NCBI GenBank assembly: GCA_964506725.1
Contig: CAZDLU010000007.1
Location: 1,036-65,035 of the forward strand
Reading direction: 5' to 3'
DNA from: an uncultured Rhizobium sp.
GTDB lineage: Bacteria > Pseudomonadota > Alphaproteobacteria > Rickettsiales > UBA1997
Length of the DNA: 64,000 bases
Positions within the stretch are counted from its first letter, which is position 1, and each line of letters begins with the position of its first letter. The translations under genes and the position numbers were made by a program. Below, piece after piece: positions 7,354-54,376 of this stretch. The notes beneath the pieces were generated by a model. The model did no database searches. It was not told the DNA's origin and saw only the letters and a program-made list of their open reading frames with translations.

Positions 7354-8637
7354 ATGTTGACAGCTTTTCGCAAATATTCATTTTTTTTAGTGCTTAGTGC
7401 TTGCTGCTTGGCGCTTGGTGAGGCGAGGGCGGATGAGAAACTTCCTTCGTTGGATGAAATTACGGCGGAATTACAGCAAAAAAAAGCTGAAGCTGAGCCA
7501 TTCGATCCGGCAAAAGTTAAGGTTGATATAGAGTCGTTGGGCCTTGATGCTCTTGACGAGAGAGATAAAGCTGGGGAAATAAAAAAAGAAGAAAAACAAG
7601 AAGAGAAGTCCAAGGAGGAAGTAAAAATTGTTCAGCCGAAAGCGCCTGAAAAACCAACGCCAAAGACCAGCAGTGAAACAAAAATAATTGACGATTCCGT
7701 TGAAAAAAAGATTGAAGAAAAAAAACAAGTTGAAGTGATAAAGCCTGTTGCTACAACGTCTGCTGACATAAAAAAGCCAACTGAAAAATACATTAATTCT
7801 GTAAAAAAACAAAATCTAAAAAAACGTTTAGAACAAGAAAAGAAAAGAGAAAGAAGTGCAAAGGAGAATTTAAAAAAGCTGCAAGAACTACGGGCCCAAT
7901 ACTTGATAAAGATTGACAAAAATAAAGAACAAGAAGAATTTTTTGCTACAGAAGAAAAAATAATTCCGCAGCGAAAAACTTTTAGCCAATTTATTTCTGA
8001 TGAGGCTCCTGCAATTCCGATTTTAAACCGCTATCGTACGCAGGATAATTTACACATTCCGGTTATTTTAACTCATAAAGAAAAAATTGATATAATGTTT
8101 GATGCAATCAGGCAGCGCTATGATACCGAATATTTTAATGCTGCTTATAAAAATGTCGAAAATCCAAATGAGATTAATGAAAACGGTGATACGATTTTAA
8201 CTTACGCCATTTTAATTCAGAATTATGGCGTGATTGCTTCGGTATTAGCTAAAGGCGCGGATCCAAACATGCCAAATTCTTTGGGCTATACTCCGGTCAA
8301 TATTGCAATTGAACTTGCCGATAATAGGGCACTTAATTTGCTCGCGGAAAATAAAGCTGATTTAACGAATTATCTTGATGCTTTCGGGCGCAATTATTTG
8401 ATGTATGCGGTGCGTGTTGGCTTTTTACCGGCTGTGGAATTATTTTTTAAAAAAGGAATTGATATAAATGCTATGGATGATGACGGATTCACTGCTTTAG
8501 CCATTGCACACCGTTATAAACGTGATATTATTGTGAAATATTTATTGCAAAATGGTGCTAAAACTTGGATCGAAAAACCTTATGAACCTGAAAAAAAATC
8601 TTTAATAAAAGAATTGGAAAATAGATGGAAAAATTAG
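7354..8637 (+). CDS. Ankyrin-repeat protein with signal-peptide-like N-terminus and Lys/Glu-rich linker
   Basis: N-terminus MLTAFRKYSFFLVLSACCLALGEARA, then ~200 aa of K/E-rich low-complexity sequence. C-terminal ankyrin repeats follow: GDTILTYAI..LAKGADPN, LGYTPVNIAIE, GRNYLMYAV, DGFTALAIAHRYKRDIIVKYLLQNGAK. Confidence 0.8.
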   Translation: MLTAFRKYSFFLVLSACCLALGEARADEKLPSLDEITAELQQKKAEAEPFDPAKVKVDIESLGLDALDERDKAGEIKKEEKQEEKSKEEVKIVQPKAPEKPTPKTSSETKIIDDSVEKKIEEKKQVEVIKPVATTSADIKKPTEKYINSVKKQNLKKRLEQEKKRERSAKENLKKLQELRAQYLIKIDKNKEQEEFFATEEKIIPQRKTFSQFISDEAPAIPILNRYRTQDNLHIPVILTHKEKIDIMFDAIRQRYDTEYFNAAYKNVENPNEINENGDTILTYAILIQNYGVIASVLAKGADPNMPNSLGYTPVNIAIELADNRALNLLAENKADLTNYLDAFGRNYLMYAVRVGFLPAVELFFKKGIDINAMDDDGFTALAIAHRYKRDIIVKYLLQNGAKTWIEKPYEPEKKSLIKELENRWKN

Positions 8638-8833: not shown

Positions 8834-9805
8834 TTGCTTGTTTTTGCTATTGTATTTTTTTCCATTAAGCCAATCAAAGCACAAATAGAAAGTCTTTATG
8901 ATAATAATGCTGGTGCGGTTGCGGGCATTAATTCATTGATGTCGGCTGTTGCAAGTAATGATTTAAACGGTGTTAAATTTTTTGCCAAAGCGGGCAGGGT
9001 ATTGATAAATCAAAAAAATTTGGGAGGTGCTACTTCACTGCATCTGGCATGTCGCGAAGGCAATTTTGAAATTGTGAAAGTTCTAATTGAAAATGGTGCC
9101 GATGTTAATGTTGTTGATAATGAAGGCTGGACACCATTGATGCGCGCAGCTTTAGCGGGTAACCAAAATATTACGGCATTGTTACTTGATCAAAAAGCTA
9201 TAGCAAGCAAAACCAATTTAACCGGCGAATCCGCCATAATTCACGCGGCTTTATCCAATTGCAACGAATGTTTAAATTTCATGTTTGAGAAATTTGATTT
9301 TATTCAAAACATGGATATCAGGCTTTTAAAAGAGCAATTGACGGAAGCTTTTGTTATTGCGCGCAACCATGAAAATGAAGTAATGCAAGGTTTGCTTACA
9401 AGCTATTTGGATCGTGTTATTAAAGCCGAGCCTTTAATTAAAGAAAAAGACCAATCTACTCCGCCTATTCCGTCTTTAGAAAACAAAGTATTTAAGATTA
9501 AGAAGGATGAAACAGAAGAGGAGGTTGTTTACACCAAGCCGATTGTGCCTATAGCTAATCCTAATGCGGTTTTTAATGAATCAATATTGCCGGTAACAAA
9601 ATCTTCTGCGCAGTCACCAATCCCCATGATTGTTAAAAATAATGAAGGTAATAACACTGTTGTGAAGAAGTTTAAATTTATATCAGGACCCAGTGGACAG
9701 GTTGTAACTAGTGTGCCAAAATATAAGAAAAAATATAAAGCAGTGGTGAAGCCTAAAACTGTTTACAAATTTAAAGGCGATTGTTATTGCGATAAAAAAC
9801 AGTAA
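8834..9805 (+). CDS. Ankyrin-repeat protein
   Basis: Ankyrin repeat consensus is clear: GATSLHLACREGNFEIVKVLIENGADVNVVDNEGWTPLMRAALAGNQNITALLLD. The track start is a TTG with no in-frame ATG upstream, so the start is uncertain. The N-terminus is short and hydrophobic; the C-terminal third is Pro/Lys-rich. Confidence 0.8.
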   Translation: MLVFAIVFFSIKPIKAQIESLYDNNAGAVAGINSLMSAVASNDLNGVKFFAKAGRVLINQKNLGGATSLHLACREGNFEIVKVLIENGADVNVVDNEGWTPLMRAALAGNQNITALLLDQKAIASKTNLTGESAIIHAALSNCNECLNFMFEKFDFIQNMDIRLLKEQLTEAFVIARNHENEVMQGLLTSYLDRVIKAEPLIKEKDQSTPPIPSLENKVFKIKKDETEEEVVYTKPIVPIANPNAVFNESILPVTKSSAQSPIPMIVKNNEGNNTVVKKFKFISGPSGQVVTSVPKYKKKYKAVVKPKTVYKFKGDCYCDKKQ

Positions 9806-12161: not shown

Positions 12162-13076
12162 ATGCAAGAATTTCAACTAATAAAAAAATACTTCGCCCCC
12201 CTCGCCGCAAGTAAAGCTGCGCGCGGTTTAAAAGATGATGCTGCTAGTTTTTCAATCAAATCAAGCGAACAATTAGTTGTAAGCAAAGACATGATGGTTG
12301 AAAATCGCCATTTTTTATTTAGCGATGGCGGCTATAAAATTGCTAAAAAACTTTTGTATAGCAATCTTTCAGATCTTGCAGCGTCTGGTGCCAAGCCGCT
12401 TTATTACATGCTGGGTTTTTCTAAAAATGATAGATTAAATAAAGAGTTTTTTACGGATTTTTCGCGTGGATTAAAGGAAGTACAAAATGAGTTTAAGCTT
12501 GATTTACTCGGTGGCGACACCGTTTTTTCTGATAAATTAGTTTTTTCAATTACGATTTTTGGTGTAACGAAAAAAAATAAAATATTAGCGCGCAACCAAG
12601 GAAAAGCCGGTGATTTAGTTTTTGTTTCAGGGTTTATCGGAGATGCTTTTTTAAGATTAGATCGCCATTTTTTTCCAACGCCAAGAGTAAAACTCGGTCA
12701 ATATTTACTTCAAAAAAATCTGTCAAAATGTGCCATTGACGTTTCTGACGGACTTCTTGCTGATCTGCGCCATATCTGTGAGGGATCGAATTTAGAGGCT
12801 GATATTGAAATTGAAAAAATTCCGATTTCCAAGGGCGCAAAAAAAATGGATTTTGATATTATGGATTTGCTAAGTGGTGGTGATGATTATGAGCTGATTT
12901 TTACCACCAGCAAAAAAAATTATGAAAAAATAATGAAGTTGAAAAAACTTCTCGATATAAATATTTCCTGCATCGGCGAGCTAAAAAAGAAAAAAAGGGG
13001 TCAGACCCCTTTTGTCAATTTACTCGACAAAAACAAGCAAAAAATAACAATTAAAAAATTTGGTTATGAGCATTGA
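12162..13076 (+). CDS. thiL: Thiamine-monophosphate kinase
   Basis: EFQLIKKYFAPL, DDAASF, VVSKDMMVENRHF, SDLAASGAKP and GGDDYELIFT match the ThiL/AIR-synthase-related layout. I use ATG 12162 because the track start (GTG 12129) lies inside the palindromic repeat. Confidence 0.85.
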   Translation: MQEFQLIKKYFAPLAASKAARGLKDDAASFSIKSSEQLVVSKDMMVENRHFLFSDGGYKIAKKLLYSNLSDLAASGAKPLYYMLGFSKNDRLNKEFFTDFSRGLKEVQNEFKLDLLGGDTVFSDKLVFSITIFGVTKKNKILARNQGKAGDLVFVSGFIGDAFLRLDRHFFPTPRVKLGQYLLQKNLSKCAIDVSDGLLADLRHICEGSNLEADIEIEKIPISKGAKKMDFDIMDLLSGGDDYELIFTTSKKNYEKIMKLKKLLDINISCIGELKKKKRGQTPFVNLLDKNKQKITIKKFGYEH

Positions 13077-13704
13077 AAAAAAATATAGCGGATCATTTAA
13101 GAGAACTACAGCGGCAAGCATTGATGCCATTATTGTATTGTTATTAAGAATTATAGTAATGCAAAGTTTGGCCTTAATTTGGATTAATAAATCTCTGCAA
13201 AATTTTGCTACCGATTTTTATAATCATTTCGGCACTGAATCGATAAAAAATACACCGGAACATATTGATTTTATTGTTCATCACCGCATGTTTTATTATG
13301 CGATAATTTTTTATTCGATCGTGATTTTTGTCGGTGCGATTTATCATGCTTATTTAAATTCATCCCTCTGGCAGGCAACGATAGGCAAAAGGTTGATGAA
13401 AATTATTATGATTAAGGAAGATGGTAACTCACGAATCAGCTTGTGGCGCGGTTTGACACATTATTTCCTTTCGGTGTTGCCATTTGTTTATATAACTTAT
13501 TTAGTATTTTTCCAAGTAAGAAATAATGTTGATTTTTATCAAGCAATTACTGCTACTAAAGTTAATGTTTTTTTCGGCATAGTTTTTGTATTATGGGCGC
13601 AAATTCATCTATTTACCAAGAAAAAAACCACGGCTTATGATTTGATTTGCGATACAACTTTAATTGAAGGAAAAGCCAACGCTAAATTACCTTGGCGCAC
13701 TTGA
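13066..13704 (+). CDS. RDD family membrane protein
   Basis: N-terminal FKRTTAASIDAIIVLLL (R..D), several TM helices, C-terminal TAYDLICDTTLIE (D). Start taken at ATG 13066 (track start 13060 is a TTG); it overlaps the thiL end. Confidence 0.65.
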   Translation: MSIEKKYSGSFKRTTAASIDAIIVLLLRIIVMQSLALIWINKSLQNFATDFYNHFGTESIKNTPEHIDFIVHHRMFYYAIIFYSIVIFVGAIYHAYLNSSLWQATIGKRLMKIIMIKEDGNSRISLWRGLTHYFLSVLPFVYITYLVFFQVRNNVDFYQAITATKVNVFFGIVFVLWAQIHLFTKKKTTAYDLICDTTLIEGKANAKLPWRT

Positions 13705-14256
13705 TTTCTGATAAGAGCTGCCATATTGAGACTGTAAATCTTGCTGATAATATTGTTCGTAGCTCTTATTGTTTTTTGACATATCTTGATGGTAGTAATA
13801 ATCGATCATATTATTAGGACTATTAGCAGCTCCCATTAGCGGGTCTTTATTTGGAGCCCCAAGAGCATTACCGTTATTTGGAATAATTAAACTATATTCT
13901 TTTTGCGTAAAATCGGCACATTTTGTGGTAAAAGCATTAAAGAAAAACACAACAGACATCATATCAAGCCAACATCTTGTGCCGTCGGAAGTTCTATTTC
14001 CCATAACATCCGTTCTAACTGCACCCCAGGTTTCAAGCTTTAATTGACCGGTTCCATAGCCTTCTTTGCTTAAAGTTACAATTTGTGGTTTTGGCTCAAT
14101 ATTTACAACAGTTGGAGTTTTTCCATAATTTTTTCCATCAATAAAAATATCAGCTCCGCTTGGATTACTATTAATTGCTATATCAACATTCCTATCGTTA
14201 AAAAAAGCACAGGAAGAAATTCCAAATAAACAAAATAATAAAAATAATTTTTTCAT
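13687..14256 (-). CDS. PEGA-domain lipoprotein
   Basis: Lipoprotein signal MKKLFLLFCLFGISSC. PEGA-like motif INSNPSGADIFIDGKNYGKTPTVVNIEPK. The C-terminal tail is Gln/Tyr-rich. Confidence 0.65.
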   Translation of the reverse strand: MKKLFLLFCLFGISSCAFFNDRNVDIAINSNPSGADIFIDGKNYGKTPTVVNIEPKPQIVTLSKEGYGTGQLKLETWGAVRTDVMGNRTSDGTRCWLDMMSVVFFFNAFTTKCADFTQKEYSLIIPNNGNALGAPNKDPLMGAANSPNNMIDYYYHQDMSKNNKSYEQYYQQDLQSQYGSSYQKSSAPR

Positions 14257-21104: not shown

Positions 21105-23180
21105 TTATTTAATCTGATCGTAATTCGAACGCGACATCAAATATTTATAAACTATCAAGTTTTCCATGATGCGCTGAACGTAATTTCTAGTTTCAGAATA
21201 TGTTATTAATTCAATCCAATCAACTACTTTATCAAGGTCTTTGGCCTTGCGCGGATCGTAAAATTCATTGATCCAACGCTGTGTTGCGTTAGGTCCGGCG
21301 TTGTATGAGGCAATTGCCAACATTTCCGAACCGTCAAATCGATCTATTAATTGTTTTATATAATGCGAACCAAGCGTGATATTATATTTAATATCATAAG
21401 CTAATTTATGCTTATTATATTTTATGCCTAAATCTTTGGCGACCAGTTTTGCTGTAGCCGGCATCAATTGCATAAAACCAATTGCACCAACATTACTCAT
21501 CGCACTTACCACAAATCCGCTTTCTTGTTTAATTATAGCGTGAACCAACGGCGCGTAAGCGTCGCCTTCAACTTCTTTTACAATTTGAAATTTATCCTTT
21601 ATGAAAAATACATTTCTTTTAGCAGCAGTGCGCGAAACCTTGGCATCAAGAGCGCGATCGCCGATTTCATTAATTATTTTCATCACAACCGCAATTTCGC
21701 CGTCGCTTTTAGCATTATTTACAATCCAGTCAAAAATCTTTCCGGCATTATCTTTGTCACCGGTTAAAGCCAGTAAGTAAGCCACTTGCGCCGCTTTTAA
21801 ATTAGCGATTGTTGTCATGTCTTTTCCGGTGATATCGGGATCTTTCGGTAAAATAATATCATCCTGCGCGCTTACGCTATCAAGGAGCCGATGCTTGTGA
21901 ATTGCCAATTGTCCATAGAAAAAAATCGGATATTTTGTTGCTTCCTTATACCATTTAATTGCTTCAACTCTATCACCATCAGCTTGCGCCGCCATACCAA
22001 GCCAATAATCTGCGCGTGCTAAAGTTACGGCTTGCGTTACATTACTTTGTAAACTTTGGAAATGTTTAAAAGCAACTTTCGGCTCGTCTAAAAAACGCAG
22101 CGCAATCCAGCCGGTAGTCCATTCTGCTTCCCAATAATTCGCAGAAGCAAAAGGTAAATTATGAGCTGAAACTATTTTATAAGCCGCACTATATTTTTTA
22201 CTTTTTAGAAGCTCGCGACCATAGAGACGACGCAAGTTCCACCACTTTTCAGCAAATTGTGAATTCTTGGGTAAATCTTCCATTAAATCAATGGCTTCAT
22301 CCTTATCGTCATGCGCTTTATGCCACATAATTCTGTGGTAAGTTAAATTTTCATGGGCCCTTAATTTTCTTGGAACTTCAAGAACTATTCTGTCGATATA
22401 TTTTGGTTTTTTTTCAATTTCTATAATTGCTGTAAAAAGTTTTTTATAATCATCATTTGTAAGTAAATTCATAATGCGGTTGGCCTCAGTAATTTTGCCA
22501 TCCCAAAGCAATCTGTCAATGCGCGCAATATGATCTATTTCATTTAATTGTTGTTGATATTTTGCTAAAAAATTTTCTTCTTCAACAAGAGAAAAGTTTT
22601 CTTTAATCCAAATCTCTGAAATCAGCGCCCGCAAGTCTTGATTTGCTTTCACTCTTTCTTGCTCAGTTAAATTTTTGCGCGATAAAAAATCTATTTTTGC
22701 TTTTAGTAAATAAATTTTTGATTCGGTTGTATTTGCCGGATTTGTTTTAAAATATTGTTCACTGGCCTGATATGGAATGTCATTGGCAATAGCCACTTTT
22801 TCAGCATTGCGCTGCATTTCTTTATAATTCGGATAAAATTTATTATCATTAACGAAACGGGAAATATCATTAAAAGAAATGCCATGCGCATCAATTTTAT
22901 TACTATATTTATTCCACAAAATAATATCTTTCAGACTTTCGGAAAAGCCAAGTTTTACCTGGCCTTCGGCGCTTACTTCATCTTGTAATAGTTTTGCTTG
23001 TTTTAAAGCTTCTTCATAATTTTTATTTTTTAAATCGGCGCTAATTTTTTTAATGATTTGTAAATCATGTTGGTCAATTTTTTTCCATAATTTAGCACTC
23101 ATAGAAGCCGAAGCGGTAGTAGGAGCGACAGCAAATGCCGTTACAAAAATTATTTGTAAAATTTTAGATATTTTATGCAA
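21105..23180 (-). CDS. slt: Soluble lytic murein transglycosylase (Slt70-like)
   Basis: Signal peptide, long alpha-superhelical N-terminal region and a C-terminal goose-type lysozyme domain (IIKQESGF, GFMQLMPATA, ASYNAGP). TTG start at 23180. Confidence 0.85.
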   Translation of the reverse strand: MHKISKILQIIFVTAFAVAPTTASASMSAKLWKKIDQHDLQIIKKISADLKNKNYEEALKQAKLLQDEVSAEGQVKLGFSESLKDIILWNKYSNKIDAHGISFNDISRFVNDNKFYPNYKEMQRNAEKVAIANDIPYQASEQYFKTNPANTTESKIYLLKAKIDFLSRKNLTEQERVKANQDLRALISEIWIKENFSLVEEENFLAKYQQQLNEIDHIARIDRLLWDGKITEANRIMNLLTNDDYKKLFTAIIEIEKKPKYIDRIVLEVPRKLRAHENLTYHRIMWHKAHDDKDEAIDLMEDLPKNSQFAEKWWNLRRLYGRELLKSKKYSAAYKIVSAHNLPFASANYWEAEWTTGWIALRFLDEPKVAFKHFQSLQSNVTQAVTLARADYWLGMAAQADGDRVEAIKWYKEATKYPIFFYGQLAIHKHRLLDSVSAQDDIILPKDPDITGKDMTTIANLKAAQVAYLLALTGDKDNAGKIFDWIVNNAKSDGEIAVVMKIINEIGDRALDAKVSRTAAKRNVFFIKDKFQIVKEVEGDAYAPLVHAIIKQESGFVVSAMSNVGAIGFMQLMPATAKLVAKDLGIKYNKHKLAYDIKYNITLGSHYIKQLIDRFDGSEMLAIASYNAGPNATQRWINEFYDPRKAKDLDKVVDWIELITYSETRNYVQRIMENLIVYKYLMSRSNYDQIK

Positions 23181-24485: not shown

Positions 24486-25127
24486 ATGATAAAAATCGCG
24501 CCTTCAATTCTTTCGGCCAACTTTGCTAAATTAGGTGAAGAAATTCAAGCAATTGAAAAAGCCGGTGCGGATTATATTCATATTGATGTGATGGATGGAA
24601 GTTTCGTTCCCAACATTACGATTGGTAATGAAGTTATAAAATCTTTGCGCTCTGTTTCATCCCTGCCCTTTGACGTTCATTTGATGATTAATAATCCCGA
24701 TAATCATGTTGAAGCTTTTGCTAAAGCCGGCGCCGATATTATTACGATACATGCTGAAGCTGTGACTCATCTGGATCGCAGCCTTTCTTTGATAAAATCT
24801 TTTGGTAAAAAGGTCGGTGTTTCAATTGTGCCTTCAACCAGTGAAGATGTTTTAGATTATGTTTTGGAAAAATTGGATTTAATTTTAGTTATGAGCGTTA
24901 ATCCTGGTTTTGGCGGGCAAAAATTTTTGGATTCGCAATTAAAAAAAATTGAAAATATTAGAAAAAAAATTGATAGAATCGGAAAAAATATCGATCTTGA
25001 AGTTGATGGCGGAATTAATGATAAAACCGCGAGATCGGCAGTCGCGGCAGGAGCTAATGTTTTGGTTTCAGGATCTTATATTTTTGGAAATAAAAATTAC
25101 GCACAAGCTATTTCAAGTTTAAGATAA
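24486..25127 (+). CDS. rpe: Ribulose-phosphate 3-epimerase
   Basis: [51 protein letters not shown]. Confidence 0.95.
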
Positions 25128-26488
25128 TGAAAAAATTTATAGTCTACGGCCTTGGCTTTTCCGGTATTTCAGCCATAAAATTTCTAGCAAAAAATAATGA
25201 AGTAATTGCGACAGATGATAATGAAAAAGCAATTATTGATGCGCAAAAGAAAGTCAATTTATCACAAGTAAAATTTTTAAAACCGGATGAAATTGAATAT
25301 GATGCTAACACGACAGTCAGTTTTGCTCCCGGCATTCCATTATATTTTCCTAAGCGTCATAAAATATTAGAAAAAAAAGTTGATCTTGCTTGCGACATCG
25401 AAGTTTTTTACAGAAATAATTCAAAAAATAATTTTATCGGAATCACCGGAACTAACGGCAAATCTACAACAACGGCACTTACCGGCTTTGTTTTAAAGGA
25501 ATTGGGAATTGATGTTGAAGTTGGCGGAAATATTGGTGTGCCTTGTTTTGATTTGCCTGCGGAAGAGAAAAAAACTTATGTTTTTGAAATGTCGTCTTAC
25601 CAATTAGACTTACTTTCACAGACTCATTTTCACATAGCATGTCTTTTAAATATAACTCCTGATCACATTGACAGACATGGCTCTCTGGCTGGTTACATTG
25701 AGGCAAAAAAAAGAATTTTTAGAAACCAAAATGAAAATGATTTTGCATTGATTGACGTTGATAATGAAAATTCACGTACGGTTTTTGAAGAGTTAAAAAA
25801 TGATAAAAATTTTAAGGCAAAATTAATTCCGATTTCGACATTAAAGCCGCAAGATTCAGGAATAGCACTGATCGATGGCGTTTTATTTGATGGAATAAAT
25901 AATTTAAAAACTGAACTAAAATCAAAATTTTTAAAAGGAAAACATAATGAACAGAATATGGCTTTTGCTTATGCTGTTACTATGTTGGGTTTTAAATTTG
26001 AGGCTGCAAAAATAATTGAAACCATAAAAAAATTTAAAGGTTTACGTCACCGCATGCAATTGCTTGGCGAAGTTAATGGTATAAAATTTATCAACGACAG
26101 TAAGGCAACTAATGCGGAATCAACAGAGCATGCATTGCGTGCTTATGATGGCATTTTTTTAATTTTAGGCGGAAAACCAAAAGATGGTGGAATCGAAATT
26201 TTAAAACCTTATTTTAAGAAACTTATTAAAGTTTACTTGATCGGTGAAGCAAGCGAAGAATTCGCTAAAACACTAAGCGCAGAGCAAGTTGATTTTGAGA
26301 AATGCGGCAATTTGGAAAATGCCTTTAAAAAAGCATTTTTTGATGCAAAAAATAATAGCTTATCACAAAAAAACATTTTACTATCGCCGGCTTGCGCATC
26401 TTTCGACCAATGGAAAAATTTTGAAGAGCGCGGAGACTATTTCTGCAAGCTTTTTGATGAATTATCTAAAACCGAAAATCAAAATTGA
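25127..26488 (+). CDS. murD: UDP-N-acetylmuramoylalanine--D-glutamate ligase
   Basis: Mur ligase P-loop GITGTNGKSTT, DSKATN and LLSPACASFDQW motifs. 453 aa. Confidence 0.93.
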   Translation: MKKFIVYGLGFSGISAIKFLAKNNEVIATDDNEKAIIDAQKKVNLSQVKFLKPDEIEYDANTTVSFAPGIPLYFPKRHKILEKKVDLACDIEVFYRNNSKNNFIGITGTNGKSTTTALTGFVLKELGIDVEVGGNIGVPCFDLPAEEKKTYVFEMSSYQLDLLSQTHFHIACLLNITPDHIDRHGSLAGYIEAKKRIFRNQNENDFALIDVDNENSRTVFEELKNDKNFKAKLIPISTLKPQDSGIALIDGVLFDGINNLKTELKSKFLKGKHNEQNMAFAYAVTMLGFKFEAAKIIETIKKFKGLRHRMQLLGEVNGIKFINDSKATNAESTEHALRAYDGIFLILGGKPKDGGIEILKPYFKKLIKVYLIGEASEEFAKTLSAEQVDFEKCGNLENAFKKAFFDAKNNSLSQKNILLSPACASFDQWKNFEERGDYFCKLFDELSKTENQN

Positions 26489-29400
26489 TCCTAAAGGTTT
26501 GGTAAAAAACTTAACCGTTTGTCTTGCCTTAATTTTTGCTACTTCACTAATCTTTTTTTCTCCAATAAGTCACTCTGATGCTCTTCCGGATTGTGCAGTA
26601 TATTCAGGAACGCCGAACCCGGGAGTTAATTGCCTTTATTTAGGAAAGCCGCTTTGTTCAACTTTAAACGTTTCACCACAACCGCGAGTTAATTGTGCCG
26701 ATTTAATTGATTTACCGCTTTGCTCCGATATTGATAATCCGGCAAATATTTTAACAAATAAAAATTGTGTTAAAAAATGCAGTGATTCATCTTTTAATAA
26801 TCCTGATCCGACTAAGGTGCGTGGTGTAGATTATGCGATTCATAATAAAAATTGCATAAGGTTTTGTGATGAAGCGACTACGGAAGGAGTAACTCCGAGC
26901 TCGACAAATTGTGTACAAAAAAAATGTTATCAATTAAATACTTCAGTTACTCCGGATGCAACTTCAGCATCGGCAAATTGCACAATAACGCCGTGCAACC
27001 TACTTACGCCTGATGAATTAAATGATACCAGATTTGATGATAGTAGCAAAAAATATTGTGACGGTTCGGCAAAATGCTATACTTTTACTAAAGCGCAATT
27101 GCCTTATTTAAAGCTTAGGGCTACTAATACTATGTGCAAAATACATGATTGCACGCCCTACCCTGTTGCTTCGCCGCCAATTTGTGGTGTTGATGATGTT
27201 GTAAATATTACTAACAAAGATGCTAGTGAGACAGGATATTCCTCGGTTTATATAGAAAAAATAAACGCCGGTTTACCGCTTGATAATAATACGATTTGTA
27301 CTCCCGTAATATGTAAACCGGTGGTGCAAAGACAATATCGTTGCACTAATTCTTCAGGAACAATAGTGGGAGATAGTACCGATACCACGCCAAATGTAAA
27401 TTGCGATGCTAGTGGCGGTGGACATGTTTGTTCTGCGATTAATATGTGTTATAAAACAATTGATTGCAATAAGCCGGAGAACAGCTCGCAAGATGAATGT
27501 GCAACTTCCATATCAGATAGCGATGCTCCTCCGGAAGATAGTTTTGAAAGCACCCTTAATACTTGGTTCTATAGACCAAAACCCATGGATAAAGCTTTAA
27601 TAAGTAGTTCTACCGGAATATTGCGCAATATGGAAAGCGGGCTTTGTTATACTTCAGACCAAATGGATGAATTTGAACCGGGAGGATTTTTAGAAATTTT
27701 AGGAATTAATTTAGGATATTTTCACTCATTTATTTTGCCGGGACATAGTACTTCCGGTGGCATGTGCAGCGCTGATCATGTGGGCTCGCGTGGCAAAGGC
27801 TATATCTATCTTTGCGGTACTGACGGACTTTTATATAATAGTATAAGTGAACATAGCGGTTTTCAAAAAGGGTATGTCAGAAGTGTTTTTACTGAAGGTG
27901 ATGCTATACATAAAGTTACTTTTTGTTTACGTTTTAAAAATGCTATGAGGCCAGATGCGGCAGGATCCGGTGAGACATGCGGCTCAAGAGAATGCGGTGT
28001 AAGCTGTGCATTTGGCAGTTGCACGCAAGCTTGCGGTTATGATATTTGCCGCGAACTAACTATTACTGAAAAAAATTCGCAAGATTGTATGATGGGAAAT
28101 GATATCTTTGGTGGCGGCGATAAAAGTTGTATGACAACAGTTGATACTTATGTACGTTTGCGGGCTGTGGGCTATAAAAATAAAATTTGCGGATTCGTAG
28201 ATTCAAAAGGTCAATTTGCCTATAATCCAATGTTTTTTGATGGCAGTGAAACTCTTGAAGATGGTCAATGTATTTCCGGAGTAAAAAATACCGATGGCAG
28301 TTGTAACGGTAAAAATACTAATGACAGCGAAGAAGTTGCAACGAAATTTCGCACTATTTTAAAAATTCCTTATATCCAGAGCAATCAACCAAGTGATGAC
28401 GCGCAAGGCTATTTAACGCGCGATGGTAGGCTTTTTAACAAGCAAGAATGTACCAACATTGCCTTGCGTGTAAGACCTCCAAGACTCTATAATTTAGCTA
28501 ACGTTCAAAATTCTACCAAGCTATTTTCGCCGCCTTTATATATTTTAAACGTGCGCCAAAAAAGAGGTGGAATTATTTCAAATCCACTCAGTAGCGCTGA
28601 TACTTATGGCCCGACTGATTTTTATTATCCGGAAATGGAAATAAAATTTGGTACTTCGACACAAAAATTAAGTTTAGGACTTGGCTTTACCGGCTATGAA
28701 GACGAAGATCATGCTGATTCTGAAAGTTTCCACACCGTTACAACAACTGCCGGTACTATAACTTATTCCGTAGAAATTTTTGTTAGAAAAGAATATGGCG
28801 CTCTTGATCGCATGCCGAAATTTTGTTTGTACCGCAAACAAAAAAATTATAGTGGCGAATATTTAGCGCCGGTTCAAGTTGCTTGCGTGGTACGAAATTA
28901 TCCTGAAATAAATAATAGTACGAATTTAGAAAAAATAATAATCGATCAAAATTCTAACGCTAATTACGATGATGCTAAAATTAAATTTAAATATTTTTAT
29001 GGTAGTGGTACGGATTGTGCTGCCGGTAGCAACCATTGCTCAGATCAAGTAACATTGGTAAATGACGTTCAGGCGACTCCGGCTTGTGCTTCAGATGTTG
29101 AGAAATATCAGGTTTGCGCGCAAAGGGAAGAATGTAGCAAGTTAAATATTGAGTGTATAAAAAATGAAGTGAATTTGCAGCAGGCTAAAGCTAATGGCGC
29201 TCCAACCGGTTCGTACGAGGCTATCAGAAATGATTGCCAGCAAAATTTATTGCCGATTTGCAGCAGAAAAAAAGGCATTGCGCCAAGTGATAGCGCTACT
29301 TTATATAATCAAAATCCTGATAATTCTGCGGGAAGCGCTACAGCCTACGGTTGGTTTAATGAAGTATGTTTGGTTTACGGTTTTGAAACTAAATTAAAAA

Positions 29401-32321
29401 CTGTTTTAGCTAACAAAACAATCGATGGCGTGAAAGGTAAATGCGTAATTGACGAGGCTAACAGTCCTTACATTACCGATGGAAATGCTTCAACAAATTG
29501 TGATGCCGGCGGTAAAGCGCCGAACTGCTTATGCGTTGAAGCCGTTAGTGGTTTTACTTCTTACGACTCAGCAACGCAAGAAATCAGAAAACAAACATTA
29601 CGTGAAGCCGGATTGTGTGTTGATATGCCAACTCCAAAATTATGTTCTCCTATCGACTATAACCAAAGTCCAAATAGCGATAGTTCTGATGCCGAATATG
29701 TTTTATATTCTCTTGGCAAAACTTCTTACAACCCTCCCCCTCCCGCTTCTACACCTTATAATTCTTCTAGCAATGTGCATTATTCACACTTTCTGCGCAC
29801 TCAAGGTTCTGTTGGTGATACCTCGATTTCAGGTTTTGTTAGCCATGGTGAATTTGCTGTTGGTGTTGTTGGAATGACAAATGTTGAGGGTACTTGTACC
29901 GGTTTTTGGATGAATAAAAATGGTAGCTTAAAACCGAAATTAAATTGCACGACTGATGGATGGGTTAACGCTGCCGACCCTTCTTTAGCCTATCCTCTCA
30001 ATGATTGCCAAAGATATTCTTGCTCAGTAATTTCAACAACCGGACCGGATGCTTCCGGAAATTATCAGGGAAATTATGGCGCGTCTGAAACTGGCGAAAC
30101 TAAAGGAGCAAGCAATGGATTTGCTACTTGGCCAGCTCATACTTTAACTTCTGATTACGCCGAAATTGAAACTGCTGTAAATTGCATTGCCGGCTTTAAA
30201 CGCACAGGAAGCACGGCTTATACTTCTTCCGGAACCAGCCTAAGTGGTTCTGCCTTAACGCAAGCTGCAATTAACGGCACAATTGATCATTATTCCGGTG
30301 GTTCTCTGCCGCAAAGATATTGTAACCAGTTAGGACAATGGCAAGAGCCAACTAATGTGTGCGAGAGGATTTCTTGTCCGGCAATAACAGCTACAATGCT
30401 TGGAAGACCTACAGGCAGCTCTGGCAATAATGCTGACGGAATTCCTAATTCAACAATTTGGGATAATTGGAAAGCTTCCGGTGGCGCAATTTTTCCTTCG
30501 GTAAAAGCTTCGCGCAGTAATGCCAGAATACAAAGCGAATCAATTTCTTATGGTACTTGCGAAACTGATCAAACCAGCAATTGGGGTTTGGGATTCTTTA
30601 ATGCCGGAACCGCGCCTTCGCGGACCTGTGACTATAACGGCAATTGGGGTCCGGTGCAAAATCCTTGCGTTTCTTATTGTAGCGAAATTACTGATCCACT
30701 CGCAGCACCGGAACGTGATGGTTACGCGAAATGGCCACAAGGCTCAGTTCCAGTGGGAGAAAGTGAGTCAATTATTAACTCTAGTAGCTGTGCTCCTGGC
30801 TACATTCCGTACCCTTACTCGCCTTACAAAGATAATCACGGAAATTTCATCGTTGATAAAACAACAGGTGATGCAATTACTTGGGATGGTGTTCTAACTA
30901 AAAATACAACTCGCGACGGTACCAATCCACGCCGCGCTTGCCAATCAATTGTTACCGTTGGTGGTGGTACTGCTAATATTTGGACAGGCACTAATTCAAG
31001 ATGTGTTAACAAATGTCCGGGATACGATCCTTCAGTGTTAGTTTCTAATCCTGATGGCGATCCGGGAGATCCAAGACTTGGCGTTGGTCGCACTTCTCAC
31101 TCAACTGCTGCCGGCACGGAAATAGTCAACTGGCCGGATACAACTTTTGGAACTTATGCTTATGTCTATGGTCATTTTGATCCCAACAGCGTTACTTTAT
31201 CAGCTGCTGATTTTCAGCCGGGAAAAACCAGCAATTATTATGTTTTAAGACGCTATTGTAATAGTGATGGTACATGGTCAACTCCTGAGCCAATTTGTAT
31301 GGCCGGTGGTGGCAAAATAGGTAATGCTACTTATAGCGTTACTTCGTCAGTTTCCGGGGTTACCGATACTGCGCCATTTACCGGTGATCACAATTCATTG
31401 CCGGTCGGCACTACGCAATTAACCGGAACTTGCGTTGCCAACTATTGGACTGCAAGCCGCGGAACTGCCGCCGCACCAAAAAGAAAGTGTTCTTATGCAT
31501 CAGGAAATAGTTACATTGATCGGGTTTATTGGGAATTAGATGCAACTACTCAGGATTGCGAGCTAACTTCCTGCCAAGCTAAAACTATAAACAGCGATGG
31601 TCTTAGAACCGGAGCTACCAATGTTACTGCCGGGAATGTTACTGATAAAAGATATTTAAATTGTGCTTCGGCTTCTGAAGCGCCTCTATCAGCAAGTCTT
31701 CCGGCCGGAGTTCCTGCAACCAGTGGACCTTATGTAGCATGTGGTACGGACGGTAATTGGGGAGCTATACAAAATGCCATAGCTTGTCAAAGAGCTTGCA
31801 ATATTCCATTATCATCAGTTTCAGGTAATCGTGTTAACGCTTATGACTGTGGTGACGGATATGGTTATTATTCGGCATCAATTTATGGCGATAGCTATTT
31901 TGTTAAAAATTATCCGCATGGTTCATCAGTAAGTTTTGCTTATTCCGACTTCTGCCCGGACGGAGCTGACGCTTGCAATATGCATTCTTACTATGTAGGA
32001 TGCAGCGACGGAACGCCAATTATTCGTTATAGCGATGGTTACGATATCAATGCTGATAATGATTATGGTTGGTGTAACAAATACCAAATATATGATTCAA
32101 CTTCTGGCACTTGGTCTGAAGGTACCGATCCGGATGACGGTAGCAATCGTAATAGGTTGGTTTTCCGTAATGGTTCTACTAAGTTAAGCAGTACTGTTAC
32201 AGAACCCGACCAAGTTACGCCAAAAACTAATCTGGATGGCGATGATACTGCATATTTCTTTTTGAATTATATTGATAGCAGTGGCGCTACCAAGAAAATG
32301 GTAATAAAACGTGATCCATAA
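26457..32321 (+). CDS. Giant secreted cysteine-rich protein (~1954 aa) with C-terminal CCP/Sushi-like modules
   Basis: Uninterrupted 5.9-kb ORF. I start it at ATG 26457 because the track start 26289 would overlap murD by 200 nt. [42 protein letters not shown] reads as a Sec signal peptide. The mature part has about 90 Cys by my manual count, is rich in N/S/T/G/D, and has no further hydrophobic helices. Confidence 0.85.
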
Positions 32322-32332
32322 AAAATAAAATT

Positions 32333-32800
32333 ATGATTTCAATTATAATGGGCTCAAAGTCAGATTTTGCAACAATGCAACATGCTTGCAAAATTTTAGA
32401 TGACTTTAAACTGGAATATGAGGTAAAAATTATCTCAGCACATCGCACACCCGACCGACTTTACGAATTTTGTGAAAATGCAAAATCTCGTGGTATAAAA
32501 ATCATCATTGCTGGCGCGGGCGGCGCAGCGCACTTACCCGGAATGACTGCCGCCATGACTGAAATTCCCGTCTTGGGAGTTCCTGTTGAAAGCAAAAGTT
32601 TAAAAGGCCTAGATTCACTATTATCAATTGCCCAAATGCCGGCCGGAATTCCGGTTGCAACACTTGCAATTGGCGAAGCCGGTGCAAAAAATGCTGCACT
32701 ATTTGCTGTAGCAATTTTGGCCTTATCAAATGAAAAACTTGCTAAGAAATTGGAAAAGTTTAGAAGTGAGCAAACTGCTGCTATAAAACTTAAACCTTAA
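32333..32800 (+). CDS. purE: 5-(carboxyamino)imidazole ribonucleotide mutase
   Basis: [18 protein letters not shown] and [14 protein letters not shown] signatures. Confidence 0.95.
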
Positions 32801-32818
32801 AATTTTTTATATTATTCA

Positions 32819-33208
32819 ATGCAAAATAGACAAAGACAATTTAGCCATAACGAAAGACGTTATGATGCAAAAAATGAAGATTCTCACAACTCTAAGGACG
32901 AGAGAAGAGAAGACAGAAATGAACCACAAAATAACAAAGCAAAAAATGAATTATTTAAGGCGCAATCTTGTACCTATAGCTCTAGCCATTTCCTCGGATT
33001 TATTTATAATTTAGCTTTATTATATTTAGTTTATTATCTAATTAATAATGGCGAAAAAGCTTTTGCTTTAATTATTTTTTCAGTAAATGCTTTAATAGTT
33101 ATTTTGGCAATTTTAACCAAAGTAAATGACCGCAGAAAACGTAATTACAACAATCATCGTCGCAACAGAAACCGCAAATTCAGATACAATAACAGCAGTA
33201 ATCAATAA
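32819..33208 (+). CDS. Hypothetical small membrane protein with Arg/Asn/Asp-rich termini
   Basis: 129-aa ORF. Highly charged N-terminus (NERRYDAKNEDSHNSKDERREDRNE), two hydrophobic helices and a basic C-terminus (RRKRNYNNHRRNRNRKFRY). No family recognised; coding status is supported only by ORF length and position. Confidence 0.4.
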   Translation: MQNRQRQFSHNERRYDAKNEDSHNSKDERREDRNEPQNNKAKNELFKAQSCTYSSSHFLGFIYNLALLYLVYYLINNGEKAFALIIFSVNALIVILAILTKVNDRRKRNYNNHRRNRNRKFRYNNSSNQ

Positions 33209-33601: not shown

Positions 33602-34927
33602 TTAGCACGATAAAGAAATTCCAAATCCTTTTAAAATATTTTTAAAATCAGGAAAACTGGTGGCTATCATCTCGGAGTCATCAACTTCAACACCATTTTC
33701 TAAAGTTAATCCCATAATTAAAAATGACATGGCAATTCTGTGATCCATTGCCGTTGCCACTCTTACAAGGGTTTTTGGTTGATTAACGCCACCTAGAACT
33801 TCTAAGAAATCATCACCCATTTTTAATGTGATGCCACATTTTTCTAAATTTTGGGCAATCATTAACAATCTATTACTTTCCTTAACTTTTAATTCGGCAA
33901 GACCATTCATTTTTGTTGTTCCTTTGGAGTGCGCCGCAGCAACTGCCAAAATCGGATATTCATCAATCATGCTGGCGGCGCGTTCTGCTGGCACTTCCAC
34001 CGCTTTTAAATCGCTTGATTCAACAATAATATCAGCAACTTCTTCGCCGCCGATTAATCTTTTATTGCTTAAAATAATATTGCCACCCATCTCGAGCAAT
34101 GTAGTAATTATACCGCTGCGCAAAGGATTGATGCCGACATTTTTTATAGTAATCTTAGAATTTTTAGTTATTAACGCGGCAACGATAAAAAATGCCGCGG
34201 AAGAAATATCATTTGGAATTGTAAAATCTTTTGCATCAAATTCTTGCAGGCCCTGATAAGAAATTTTACGCGCTTCACCAATATCTTCGACTGTTATATT
34301 TAATCCTAAATAACGCATCATAATTTCACTATGATCGCGACATTTTTCCGGCTCAATAATTGTCGTAATACCATGTGTTGCAAGGCTTGCCAGCAATATG
34401 CAGCTTTTTACCTGAGCTGATGCTACTTTCATTTTATATTCAATTGGCAAAGAATTTTTGGCGCCGATTATAGCAAAAGGCATTAGGTTATTTTGCCGCG
34501 CTACAATATTTGCGCCAAATTGCTTTATAGGTTCAAACACTCGTGCCATAGGCCTTTTTCGTAGGGAAGCATCGCCGGAAAAAAAAGAAGTAAAATTATA
34601 AGGAGTAACAAGACCCGCAAGCAAACGTGCCGCAGTTCCAGAATTTCCCATATCAAGCACATCGCTTGGTTCCGACAATCCCACCACTCCAGAGCCATTC
34701 ACTTCCCAAGCTCCATTCGCTATTCGGTTAATCTCAACACCCATTAAGCGCAAAGCTGACGCCGTTTTTAGAACATCTTCGCCTTCTAAAAGATTAGTAA
34801 TTTTTGTTTTGCCATGAGCCAGTGATGCAAAAATTAAAGAGCGATGAGATATTGATTTATCTGGTGCTATCGTAATTTCACCTTTTAGAGGAATATCTTG
34901 TTTGTAGGAGCGAAGAGGTTTTTGCAA
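33602..34927 (-). CDS. aroA: 3-phosphoshikimate 1-carboxyvinyltransferase (EPSP synthase)
   Basis: APDKSISHRSLIFASLA, GNSGTAARLLAG and DHRIAMSF motifs. TTG start at 34927. Confidence 0.92.
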   Translation of the reverse strand: MQKPLRSYKQDIPLKGEITIAPDKSISHRSLIFASLAHGKTKITNLLEGEDVLKTASALRLMGVEINRIANGAWEVNGSGVVGLSEPSDVLDMGNSGTAARLLAGLVTPYNFTSFFSGDASLRKRPMARVFEPIKQFGANIVARQNNLMPFAIIGAKNSLPIEYKMKVASAQVKSCILLASLATHGITTIIEPEKCRDHSEIMMRYLGLNITVEDIGEARKISYQGLQEFDAKDFTIPNDISSAAFFIVAALITKNSKITIKNVGINPLRSGIITTLLEMGGNIILSNKRLIGGEEVADIIVESSDLKAVEVPAERAASMIDEYPILAVAAAHSKGTTKMNGLAELKVKESNRLLMIAQNLEKCGITLKMGDDFLEVLGGVNQPKTLVRVATAMDHRIAMSFLIMGLTLENGVEVDDSEMIATSFPDFKNILKGFGISLSC

Positions 34928-53750: not shown

Positions 53751-53800
53751 ATGGCTATTTTTCTGATAGTTTTTAATCAAGAAAATTACATTATAATCAT

Positions 53801-54376
53801 ATGATTGCAAATAAAACCGTGCTTGTAATTTTGCGCCAAGAATTTGCTACTACTACCAATTCCGATTCAATAATTTCTTCACCGAATGCTAAAAATGGCA
53901 CGATTTTAACGATAACTGATGAAGCTAGAGAAGTAACAACAATGGCTCATCTTGATAATAATGAGACCTTGGCAGAAGATTTCGAAATTATAATAAATGA
54001 TTTTACCCAAAATGGCGGAGATATTGAAAATGCCAAGTGCAATTTGATGGGAAAAAAACCTTATGTACAATTAGAGAAAATCTTGAATAAAAGAAAAATA
54101 AAATTTGATAAAGAAACCTGGAGCGGCACGCATTCTTATATTGTTGAAGCTTTTTATGACGGAAGAATTTCCATCACTAACGATCCGGAAAAATCGCGGC
54201 AAATTATTACCGGCCTCTTATTCGATGAAAAACAAGATGGCGAAAGCCGCATAAATCAAGCCATGAGCAATCAACCGATTAATCTGACAAAAATAATTCG
54301 CGGCCATCAGGTTCCGTCTTCGGTATTGGCAAAACCGCAGGAAGCTGCGGCACTAAATTATAGCAATAATAATTAA
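53801..54376 (+). CDS. Hypothetical soluble protein
   Basis: 191-aa ORF with no signal peptide or TM helix and no family recognised. Supported by length, position and ordinary amino-acid composition only. Confidence 0.5.

What the first reader, a model, noticed from the sequence alone, without database searches (positions are those of the whole stretch)
26457..32321. Giant (~1954 aa) signal-peptide-bearing protein with ~90 cysteines, inserted between murD and purE
This 5.9-kb intact ORF is by far the largest gene in an otherwise streamlined window. It lies between two core genes on the same strand. Its start overlaps the last 32 nt of murD, and purE starts 11 nt after its stop. The N-terminus is a plausible Sec signal peptide. 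The mature protein has no further hydrophobic helices, about 90 Cys (roughly 4.6 percent by manual count) and an N/S/T/G/D-rich composition. These features imply an extracytoplasmic, disulfide-stabilised, modular protein. I see none of the usual bacterial giant-adhesin hallmarks. There is no RTX GGxGxD nonapeptide, no obvious long tandem Ig-like repeats, no lipobox and no LPXTG. The C-terminus ends ...[11 protein letters not shown] with no terminal aromatic residue, so there is no autotransporter-like signature. Its export route and fold family are therefore not obvious. It is my best candidate for a novel host-interaction factor.
Basis: partly seen in the sequence, partly recalled or inferred. 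Interest (0 to 1): 0.85.

Follow-up and report, generated by a model that had tools for sequence, protein, structure and literature searches.

The report
Conserved giant disulfide-rich secreted protein
This intact 1954-residue gene encodes an exported protein with about 45 likely disulfide bonds; it is not an insertion but a conserved, uncharacterised gene of an uncultured Rickettsiales-like lineage, is built from two parts with no known relatives plus a string of animal-type "Sushi" modules, and is probably a rigid envelope or surface fibre.

Summary
ORF 26457..32321 (+) is intact: 1954 aa, 91 Cys, one N-terminal hydrophobic segment, a 32-nt overlap with murD, and purE 11 nt downstream.

The word "inserted" is wrong. 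At least 130 full-length relatives (33-45% identity, about 70 invariant Cys) exist in uncultured alphaproteobacterial MAGs. They sit at the same locus in most loci examined. GC3 matches the neighbouring genes.

The claim of no tandem repeats is also wrong. Residues 1131-1781 hold seven divergent Sushi/CCP modules. Residues 43-352 hold degenerate 19-aa CX4C repeats.

Residues 363-1065 form a confidently modelled β-rich core. It has no Pfam, PDB or BFVD match, and only 132 relatives among 1.84 billion representative proteins. The last ~170 aa are hypervariable.

Best reading (0.42): a Sec-exported, fully disulfide-bonded modular fibre with a conserved base and a variable binding tip, used for surface contact in a host-associated bacterium. 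The route across the outer membrane is unknown. A periplasmic or envelope scaffold (0.30) is not excluded.

It is a new, uncharacterised family. No function has been tested.

The parts
26457..26582 (+). N-terminal signal peptide, or possibly a signal-anchor (residues 1-42). It has a basic n-region (5 K), the 17-residue h-region [16 protein letters not shown], and SDA|LPDC. The first 32 nt overlap murD.
   Evidence: By a heuristic, 55 of 58 relatives show a hydrophobic core followed by a (-3,-1) site. The mature start LPxC is conserved.
26583..27512 (+). N-terminal cysteine-repeat stalk (residues 43-352, 26 Cys). It consists of degenerate ~19-aa units of the type D-x-P-G-x-N-C-x(3-4)-C. Relatives P0097, P0105 and P0117 carry 12-14 extra tandem units.
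   Evidence: repeat listing. (pLDDT about 90, repeated small strand/helix elements). (the Cys are invariant).
27543..29651 (+). Family-defining conserved core (residues 363-1065, 33 Cys). It contains β-rich domains, a helical hairpin at 891-940 and a small Cys-rich domain. It has no detectable relatives outside the family.
   Evidence: mean pLDDT of the model 84.5. (no PDB or BFVD match). (132 hits among 1.84e9 representatives).
28473..28523 (+). A conserved loop inside the core that is modelled with low confidence (residues 673-689, [17 protein letters not shown], pI 11). It is a candidate interaction or flexible segment.
   Evidence: pLDDT below 50 at model residues 634-650. (consensus PPxxYNLANxxNSxxLFxPP)..
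29847..31799 (+). Array of seven divergent Sushi/CCP-like modules, M0-M6 (residues 1131-1781). They carry C..C..C-x2-4-G-x-W..C patterns and 3-4-residue C-to-C linkers. Modules are 60-120 aa long because of insertions.
   Evidence: hhalign between modules, up to 96% probability. (Pfam Sushi above its gathering score in three relatives, mapping to M1 and M6). (sub-threshold Ephrin_CRD at 1241-1302). (best fold hits are CD46 SCR1-2, the Eph cysteine-rich domain and factor H SCR6-7, all sub-threshold).
31800..32321 (+). Hypervariable C-terminal tip domain (residues 1782-1954) plus the stop codon. It is β-rich, modelled with low confidence, and replaced by unrelated sequence in many relatives.
   Evidence: column conservation 0.07-0.23, gaps up to 0.79. 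(pLDDT 36-80). (divergent C-termini).
25127..26488 (+). murD, the upstream neighbour. Its 3' end overlaps the start of the giant gene.
   Evidence: The same juxtaposition occurs in L003, L004, L008 and L010.
32333..32800 (+). purE (AIR carboxylase), the downstream neighbour, 11 nt after the stop.
   Evidence: purE is adjacent in L001, L003, L004, L007 and L008, and lies immediately upstream in L006.

Best explanation
The gene encodes a lineage-conserved, Sec-exported structural and binding fibre. It is tightly packed with murD and purE and is probably co-transcribed with them.

Proposed sequence of events:
1. The N-terminal signal takes the protein across the inner membrane.
2. The 90 remaining cysteines are oxidised into about 45 disulfides in the periplasm.
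3. This yields a rigid, protease-resistant, elongated molecule of about 205 kDa.

The molecule has four parts:
- a cysteine-repeat stalk whose unit number varies between relatives;
- a conserved ~700-residue β-rich core of unknown fold, proposed as the base or attachment part;
- a beads-on-a-string array of seven Sushi/CCP-like modules, proposed as a spacer and protein or glycan binding surface;
- a hypervariable C-terminal tip, proposed as the ligand-contacting end.

I infer that it is displayed at or beyond the cell surface, where it mediates contact with a eukaryotic host or partner cell.

Shown: the ORF, its conservation, the signal-like N-terminus, the Cys invariance and parity, the repeat and CCP anatomy, and the variable tip.

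Inferred: cleavage of the signal, actual disulfide formation, surface exposure, the binding function, and the route across the outer membrane.
For: Intact gene and conserved family:
- 136 homologues were found. The 120 listed are almost all full length (1800-2700 aa).
- The family is conserved over residues ~40-1800, with about 70 invariant Cys.

Export and oxidative folding:
- There is a single N-terminal hydrophobic segment followed by signal-peptidase-type sites.
- 47 of 58 relatives have an even Cys count after the aligned cleavage point (binomial p = 1e-6).
- DsbD and a thioredoxin lie close to the gene in L007.

Elongated modular build:
- Both AlphaFold models have high pLDDT (84.5 and 76.4) but pTM of only 0.52.
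- The CCP modules are related to one another.
- They are joined by 3-4-residue Cys-to-Cys linkers.
- Pfam Sushi passes its gathering score in the orthologous modules of three relatives.

Surface or binding role:
- The C-terminal ~170 aa are hypervariable.
- Relatives carry extra adhesive-type domains: βγ-crystallin PF00030 in P0028, and a weak SUEL-lectin match in P0220.
- The N-terminal repeat number varies between relatives.
- The protein evolves much faster than LigA from the same contigs: 35-43% versus 72-75% identity.

Host-associated setting:
- The window also encodes VirD4 and two ankyrin-repeat proteins.
- Related contigs carry VirB3 and TrbI, and a related contig from a relative reaches 954 kb.
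Against: - No mechanism for crossing the outer membrane was identified. There is no β-barrel, TPS, RTX or T9SS-type domain, and no partner gene at the locus.
- A Sec signal alone places the protein in the periplasm.
- The h-region is long (17-19 residues), so an uncleaved inner-membrane anchor is possible.
- Strict vertical inheritance inside a housekeeping gene string next to murD, with an SLT transglycosylase and a MurA-type gene nearby, fits an envelope-structural role equally well.
- There is no expression, localisation or binding data.
- The Sushi assignment is below threshold in this protein itself.
Confidence: 0.42

Rival explanations
1. Periplasmic or outer-membrane-associated structural scaffold. 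The protein stays inside the envelope, free or anchored by its N-terminal hydrophobic segment. There its disulfide-stapled rod stiffens or spaces the envelope, analogous to the cysteine-rich OmcB/OmcA network of Chlamydia.
For: - Only a Sec-type signal is present, with no outer-membrane translocation module.
- The h-region is long.
- The position directly after murD is deeply conserved, even in the distant 2415-aa relative in L010.
- Envelope genes lie nearby: SLT, MlaD, DUF2155 and a MurA-type EPSP_synthase family gene.
- The gene is a core gene of the lineage.
Against: - A hypervariable C-terminal tip, variable repeat number and acquisition of crystallin- or lectin-like inserts are not expected for an internal scaffold.
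- Seven CCP modules plus the stalk would probably exceed the width of a periplasm. This is an inference from the typical ~3-4 nm length of a CCP module, which is my own knowledge and was not tested here.
- The linkage to murD is broken in L005, L006 and L007.
Confidence: 0.3
2. Secreted toxin or effector released into, or injected into, host cells. One possible route is a periplasmic intermediate exported by the type IV system, as for pertussis toxin.
For: - T4SS genes are present in the window and in relatives.
- Pertussis toxin is a precedent for Sec export, periplasmic disulfide formation and then T4SS export. This is my own knowledge.
Against: - No catalytic or toxin domain was found in Pfam, NCBIfam or PDB.
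- The invariant residues are mostly Cys, Gly, Arg, Trp and Pro rather than a catalytic set.
- The protein is very large and rod-like.
Confidence: 0.08
3. Recent horizontal acquisition from a eukaryote or a virus, or an assembly artefact or pseudogene.
For: - Sushi/CCP and Eph-type cysteine-rich modules are typical of animals and their viruses.
- GC is locally higher: 0.45 in the 3' part against about 0.35 for the window.
Against: - GC3 of the gene (0.282) equals that of its neighbours. The GC rise lies in codon positions 1 and 2, so it reflects amino-acid composition.
- The reading frame is intact.
- The identical protein occurs on an independent Logan contig.
- There are at least 130 full-length bacterial relatives in conserved synteny.
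- The core has no relatives outside this family.
- An ancient origin of the CCP modules from eukaryotes cannot be excluded.
Confidence: 0.03

Closest known systems
Tandem CCP/Sushi (SCR) arrays of complement regulators (factor H, CD46, CR1, poxvirus VCP) and the Sushi-containing cysteine-rich domain of Eph receptors
   Same: - The modules have four Cys with a C-x2-4-G-x-W motif before the last Cys.
- The linkers between the last Cys of one module and the first Cys of the next are 3-4 residues long.
- The best fold matches are CD46 SCR1-2, the EphA2 cysteine-rich domain and factor H SCR6-7.
- Pfam Sushi passes its threshold in the orthologous modules of three relatives.
   Different: - The protein is bacterial.
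- The modules are 60-120 aa long, with large insertions.
- Two modules lack one canonical Cys.
- No Pfam Sushi hit was found in this protein itself.
- All fold matches have E > 0.01.
- The array is fused to ~1100 residues that have no relatives.
Chlamydial cysteine-rich envelope proteins OmcB/OmcA (outer membrane complex)
   Same: - Both carry a Sec signal and have about 4-5% Cys.
- Both are core genes of a reduced-genome, host-associated lineage.
- Both are presumed to work as disulfide-stabilised envelope proteins, and OmcB also acts as an adhesin. This comparison rests on my own knowledge.
   Different: - No sequence or Pfam similarity was detected.
- The size is 205 kDa against about 60 kDa.
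- The modular repeat and CCP build is different.
- The resemblance is an analogy only.
Giant bacterial surface adhesins: RTX/LapA-type T1SS adhesins, Rickettsia Sca autotransporters, intimin/invasin inverse autotransporters, and TpsA proteins
   Same: - The size is similar.
- The design is a conserved base, a rod of repeated small β-modules and a variable distal tip.
- The setting is a host-associated organism.
   Different: - There are no RTX repeats.
- There is no C-terminal or N-terminal β-barrel.
- There is no TPS domain.
- Those adhesins are almost free of Cys, whereas this protein has 90 Cys in its exported part.
- The export route is unknown.

Membership tests
Sushi/CCP/SCR repeat (PF00084) | Match to the family profile at the curated threshold | tested here: inconclusive
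   This protein has no Sushi hit at E<=1; the only hit is Ephrin_CRD at 16.3 bits against a cut-off of 27. Relatives P0043, P0102 and P0111 score 25.4-29.2 bits against a cut-off of 20.7, and these matches map onto query modules M6 (1706-1777) and M1 (1189-1302).
Sushi/CCP/SCR repeat (PF00084) | Four conserved Cys per module, and an invariant Trp between Cys3 and Cys4 | tested here: met
   Five of the seven modules have four Cys. M0 and M4 lack one, and M5 has four only if C1614 is counted as its first Cys rather than as the fourth Cys of M4. A Trp follows Cys3 in all seven modules. The Cys and Trp are invariant or nearly invariant across 58 sequences. The 1-3 / 2-4 disulfide pairing itself could not be checked.
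Sushi/CCP/SCR repeat (PF00084) | Compact β-sandwich fold of about 60 residues | tested here: inconclusive
   The modules are 60-120 aa long. The best Foldseek hit is CD46 SCR1-2 at E = 0.014, probability 0.77. The Eph cysteine-rich domain and factor H SCR6-7 score weaker, and nothing reaches E<=0.001.
RTX / T1SS giant adhesins | GGxGxD nonapeptide repeats, and a C-terminal secretion signal without an N-terminal signal peptide | tested here: not met
   There are zero GG.G.D motifs, and an N-terminal signal-like segment is present.
Classical autotransporters (type Va, including Rickettsia Sca proteins) | C-terminal β-barrel translocator ending in an aromatic residue | tested here: not met
   There is no autotransporter Pfam hit. 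The C-terminus ends ...VIKRDP and is hypervariable in the family.
Inverse autotransporters (type Ve) and two-partner secretion TpsA (type Vb) | N-terminal β-barrel (intimin/invasin type) or an N-terminal TPS domain | tested here: not met
   There are no Pfam or NCBIfam hits. The model of residues 40-1100 has no PDB fold match at E<=0.1.
Bacterial lipoproteins / LPXTG-anchored proteins | A lipobox at the end of the signal peptide, or a C-terminal LPXTG motif | tested here: not met
   The only lipobox-like string is at residue 1703. There is no LPXTG.
Chlamydial OmcB family | Sequence homology to the 60-kDa cysteine-rich outer membrane protein | tested here: not met
   No Pfam family other than the sub-threshold Ephrin_CRD was found. 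There is no PDB sequence match.

The most novel reading that the evidence does not exclude
This family is the principal, lineage-defining host-attachment organelle of a deep, uncultured Rickettsiales-like clade. It would be an extracellular fibre stapled by ~45 disulfides, built on two protein folds not seen before plus a genuinely bacterial CCP array. It would reach the surface by a route not covered by the known secretion-system signatures, for example export of a folded periplasmic intermediate through the type IV system. Its variable tip would determine host range.
Probability: 0.15. Interest if true: 0.8.

Novelty: new variant of a known kind. Interest (0 to 1): 0.55.

Why it matters
This lineage's genome is small; a contig from a relative reaches about 1 Mb. 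It nevertheless keeps a 5.9-kb gene, holds roughly 70 cysteines invariant, and maintains the gene at a conserved locus across the whole lineage. That marks the gene as important.

If the protein is the surface structure by which these uncultured Rickettsiales-like bacteria touch their hosts, it would give three things:
- a handle on how host association works outside the well-studied families;
- a marker gene for the clade;
- an antigen for visualising or enriching these cells.

The ~700-residue core and the CX4C stalk are confidently modelled, yet they have no relatives in Pfam, PDB or BFVD. They are therefore candidate new folds. A bacterial CCP array also bears on where these animal-type modules came from.

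Tried and rejected
- Pfam, NCBIfam and PHROGs scans of the whole protein gave only a sub-threshold Ephrin_CRD hit.
- A profile of 58 sequences against PDB sequences found nothing at E<=1.
- Foldseek of the model of residues 40-1100 against PDB and BFVD found nothing at E<=0.001. The top hits were Fab fragments and phage proteins with TM below 0.1, and I treat them as noise.
- Foldseek of the C-terminal model gave only weak CCP and Eph hits.
A domain-level match could therefore have been missed.
- The genome-contig scan returned one relative, L002, labelled 'uncultured Rhizobium sp.'. I regard that label as uninformative.
- Exact look-ups gave no organism names.
- Literature searches on accessions and on Sushi or cysteine-rich proteins in Rickettsiales found nothing relevant. 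One Rickettsiales MAG preprint does not mention such a protein.
- Promoter and terminator scans were at chance level.
- Alignments of more than about 95 full-length members failed, so 55-58 sequences were used.
- Pfam scans of distant, longer relatives (up to 4811 aa) gave no functional clue beyond a weak SUEL-lectin match.
- I considered an outer-membrane β-barrel within the core. I set it aside because no porin or autotransporter fold match appeared and the strands carry conserved Cys. It is not formally excluded.
Full report
**1. Is it there?**

Yes. The frame from ATG 26457 to TAA 32321 is open for 1954 codons, with no internal stop. A longer mechanical ORF starts at TTG 26289, but that stretch lies inside murD. 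Relatives begin MNY... and share the mature motif LPxC, which supports the ATG at 26457.

murD (25127..26488) carries the Mur_ligase_M and Mur_ligase_C domains and overlaps the start by 32 nt. purE (AIRC, 32333..32800) begins 11 nt after the stop.

The protein has 91 Cys (4.66%). Its most frequent residues are S, G, T, N, A and D. It has one hydrophobic stretch, near the N-terminus. It has no GGxGxD, no LPXTG and no N-terminal lipobox, and it ends ...VIKRDP. The factual part of the finding is accurate.

**2. It is not an insertion.**

A search of 5.8 billion proteins found 136 relatives. The 120 listed are almost all full length (1800-2700 aa) and 32-49% identical to the query. None carries a name other than 'hypothetical protein'.

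The gene order NDUFA12 - MlaD - DUF2155 - rpe - murD - [giant] - purE recurs in several places:
- the window itself;
- a 954-kb contig, L003;
- GCA_018970485.1, L004;
- GCA_964537735.1, L008.

Other arrangements also occur:
- L006 has murD - purE - [giant].
- L007 has tsaE - [giant] - purE.
- The distant 2415-aa relative in L010 still follows murD, with a 4-nt overlap.
- Only L005 has a different setting.

GC3 of the gene is 0.282, inside the range of its neighbours (0.24-0.42). Its higher overall GC lies in codon positions 1 and 2 and so reflects amino-acid composition. The identical protein was also assembled independently in a Logan contig. The gene is therefore real, vertically inherited, and a core gene of its lineage.

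**3. Which lineage?**

No rRNA or other Rfam family lies in the window. LigA from the window is 68-76% identical to LigA of many MAGs. Those MAGs are labelled Rickettsiales bacterium, Proteobacteria bacterium, Alphaproteobacteria bacterium RIFCSPLOWO2_01_FULL_40_26 or Pelagibacterales bacterium.

The window encodes a VirD4-type coupling protein and two ankyrin-repeat proteins. Related contigs carry VirB3 and TrbI, and a related contig reaches about 1 Mb. This fits an uncultured, reduced-genome alphaproteobacterium that is probably host-associated. The exact taxon was not determined.

On contigs that carry both genes, LigA is 72-75% identical to the window's copy. The giant protein is only 35-43% identical. 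It therefore evolves fast on a fixed cysteine scaffold.

**4. Anatomy.**

The 58-sequence alignment (A1) shows conservation from residue ~40 to ~1800, with about 70 invariant Cys.

(a) Residues 1-42 form the signal-like segment. It has five Lys, a 17-residue h-region, and SDA|LPDC. By a simple heuristic, 55 of 58 relatives show the same layout. The h-region is long, so an uncleaved anchor cannot be excluded.

(b) Residues 43-352 carry 26 Cys in degenerate ~19-residue units of the type D-x-P-G-x-N-C-x(3-4)-C. Three long relatives add 12-14 clean tandem copies (...NCSLPxCxxPLxxxDxP...). AlphaFold models this region at pLDDT about 90, as a series of small elements.

(c) Residues 363-1065 form the family core. 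It holds β-rich domains, a helical hairpin (891-940) and a small Cys-rich domain. It is modelled confidently (the whole model has mean pLDDT 84.5), apart from one conserved basic loop at 673-689.

(d) Residues 1131-1781 hold seven modules with the Cys and Trp pattern of Sushi/CCP domains. They are joined by 3-4-residue Cys-to-Cys linkers. Evidence on these modules:
- Profile-profile comparison relates the modules to one another, with up to 96% probability.
- Pfam Sushi passes its curated cut-off in three relatives. Those matches map to modules M1 and M6 of this protein.
- In this protein only a sub-threshold Ephrin_CRD hit appears, at 1241-1302.
- The best fold matches of the C-terminal model (pLDDT 76.4) are CD46 SCR1-2 (E = 0.014), Eph receptor ectodomains and factor H SCR6-7. 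None is significant.

I call them divergent CCP-like modules carrying large insertions.

(e) Residues 1782-1954 are hypervariable in the family and modelled with low confidence.

**5. No relatives for the first 1100 residues.**

Several searches found nothing:
- a profile of the whole family against PDB sequences;
- Foldseek of the model of residues 40-1100 against PDB at E<=0.001;
- the same model against BFVD at E<=0.001.

A profile of the core was searched against 1.84 billion representative proteins. It found 132 proteins, all of them giant (up to 4811 aa) or fragments of such proteins. The distant members also lack Pfam domains, apart from one weak SUEL-lectin match.

**6. Disulfides.**

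After residue 42 the protein has 90 Cys, an even number. The count is also even in 47 of 58 relatives (binomial p = 1e-6). This is the pattern expected if essentially all Cys are paired, meaning the protein folds in an oxidising compartment. DsbD and a thioredoxin lie near the gene in L007.

**7. Mechanism.**

The best-supported reading is a Sec-exported, fully oxidised, elongated modular protein with a conserved base and a variable end. Four features point to a surface-contact function:
- the variable tip;
- the variable number of stalk repeats;
- the sporadic insertion of βγ-crystallin-like or lectin-like domains in relatives;
- a substitution rate faster than that of a housekeeping enzyme.

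CCP arrays elsewhere act as extended binding rods; this statement rests on my own knowledge. The weak point is export. Nothing in the sequence or at the locus explains passage across the outer membrane.

The main rival is a periplasmic or envelope scaffold, an analogue of chlamydial OmcB. It is favoured by the Sec-only signal and by the deep linkage to murD among envelope genes: SLT, MlaD, and a MurA-type gene at 33602-34927. I give 0.42 to the surface fibre, 0.30 to the envelope scaffold, and small probabilities to a released toxin or effector and to foreign origin or artefact.

**8. Comparison and novelty.**

The protein is not a member of the RTX, autotransporter, inverse-autotransporter, TPS, lipoprotein, LPXTG or OmcB families. 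The defining features of each were tested and not met.

Its C-terminal third works like, and is probably homologous to, CCP arrays. Formal membership is inconclusive for this protein.

The family is uncharacterised. It is best described as a new variant of the known kind 'giant modular bacterial surface or envelope protein'. It is unusual in four respects: extreme disulfide content, a bacterial CCP array, two regions without detectable relatives, and status as a syntenic core gene in a ~1-Mb genome.

Interest is moderate to high for people who study Rickettsiales-like symbionts and protein folds. It is limited by the complete lack of functional data.

Noticed in passing
window 3180-5033 (+), 7354-8637 (+), 8834-9805 (+): A VirD4-type type IV secretion coupling protein is followed, after ligA, by two ankyrin-repeat proteins. 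This combination is typical of host-associated bacteria.
   Followed up: partly
window 32819-33208 (+); L003 16761-17120; L004 16615-16983: A small (119-129 aa) protein is conserved just downstream of purE. It has two central hydrophobic helices and very basic, His/Arg/Asn-rich tails. Its only Pfam hit is a weak, sub-threshold CLN3 match. Whether it is functionally linked to the giant gene is unknown.
   Followed up: partly
window 50845-52296 (-) and 52293-53810 (-): Two adjacent ORFs have markedly lower GC (0.27-0.28, GC12 about 0.27) than the rest of the window (~0.35). They were not annotated.
   Followed up: no
window 21105-23180 (-) and 33602-34927 (-): A 691-aa SLT lytic transglycosylase and an EPSP_synthase-family (MurA/AroA-type) gene flank the murD-giant-purE string. 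Several peptidoglycan-related genes therefore cluster around the giant gene.
   Followed up: partly
window 28473-28523 (residues 673-689 of the giant protein): The motif PPxxYNLANxxNSxxLFxPP is strongly conserved but is modelled at pLDDT below 50. It is the only basic patch (pI 11) in an acidic protein, and is a candidate docking or processing site.
   Followed up: no
L003 1261-5655 (-): A relative's contig holds a second large ORF (1464 aa) with no Pfam hit, a few kb upstream of the conserved gene string. It was not compared with the giant family.
   Followed up: no
relatives P0216, P0220, P0231, P0244 (L009 for P0220): Distant family members reach 3700-4800 aa. P0220 fills almost its whole 12.6-kb contig. 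The superfamily therefore includes considerably larger architectures.
   Followed up: partly
window 13687-14256 (-), 13060-13704 (+): A PEGA-domain protein and an RDD-family membrane protein lie next to a lipid A acyltransferase gene. These are further envelope-related genes in the window.
   Followed up: no
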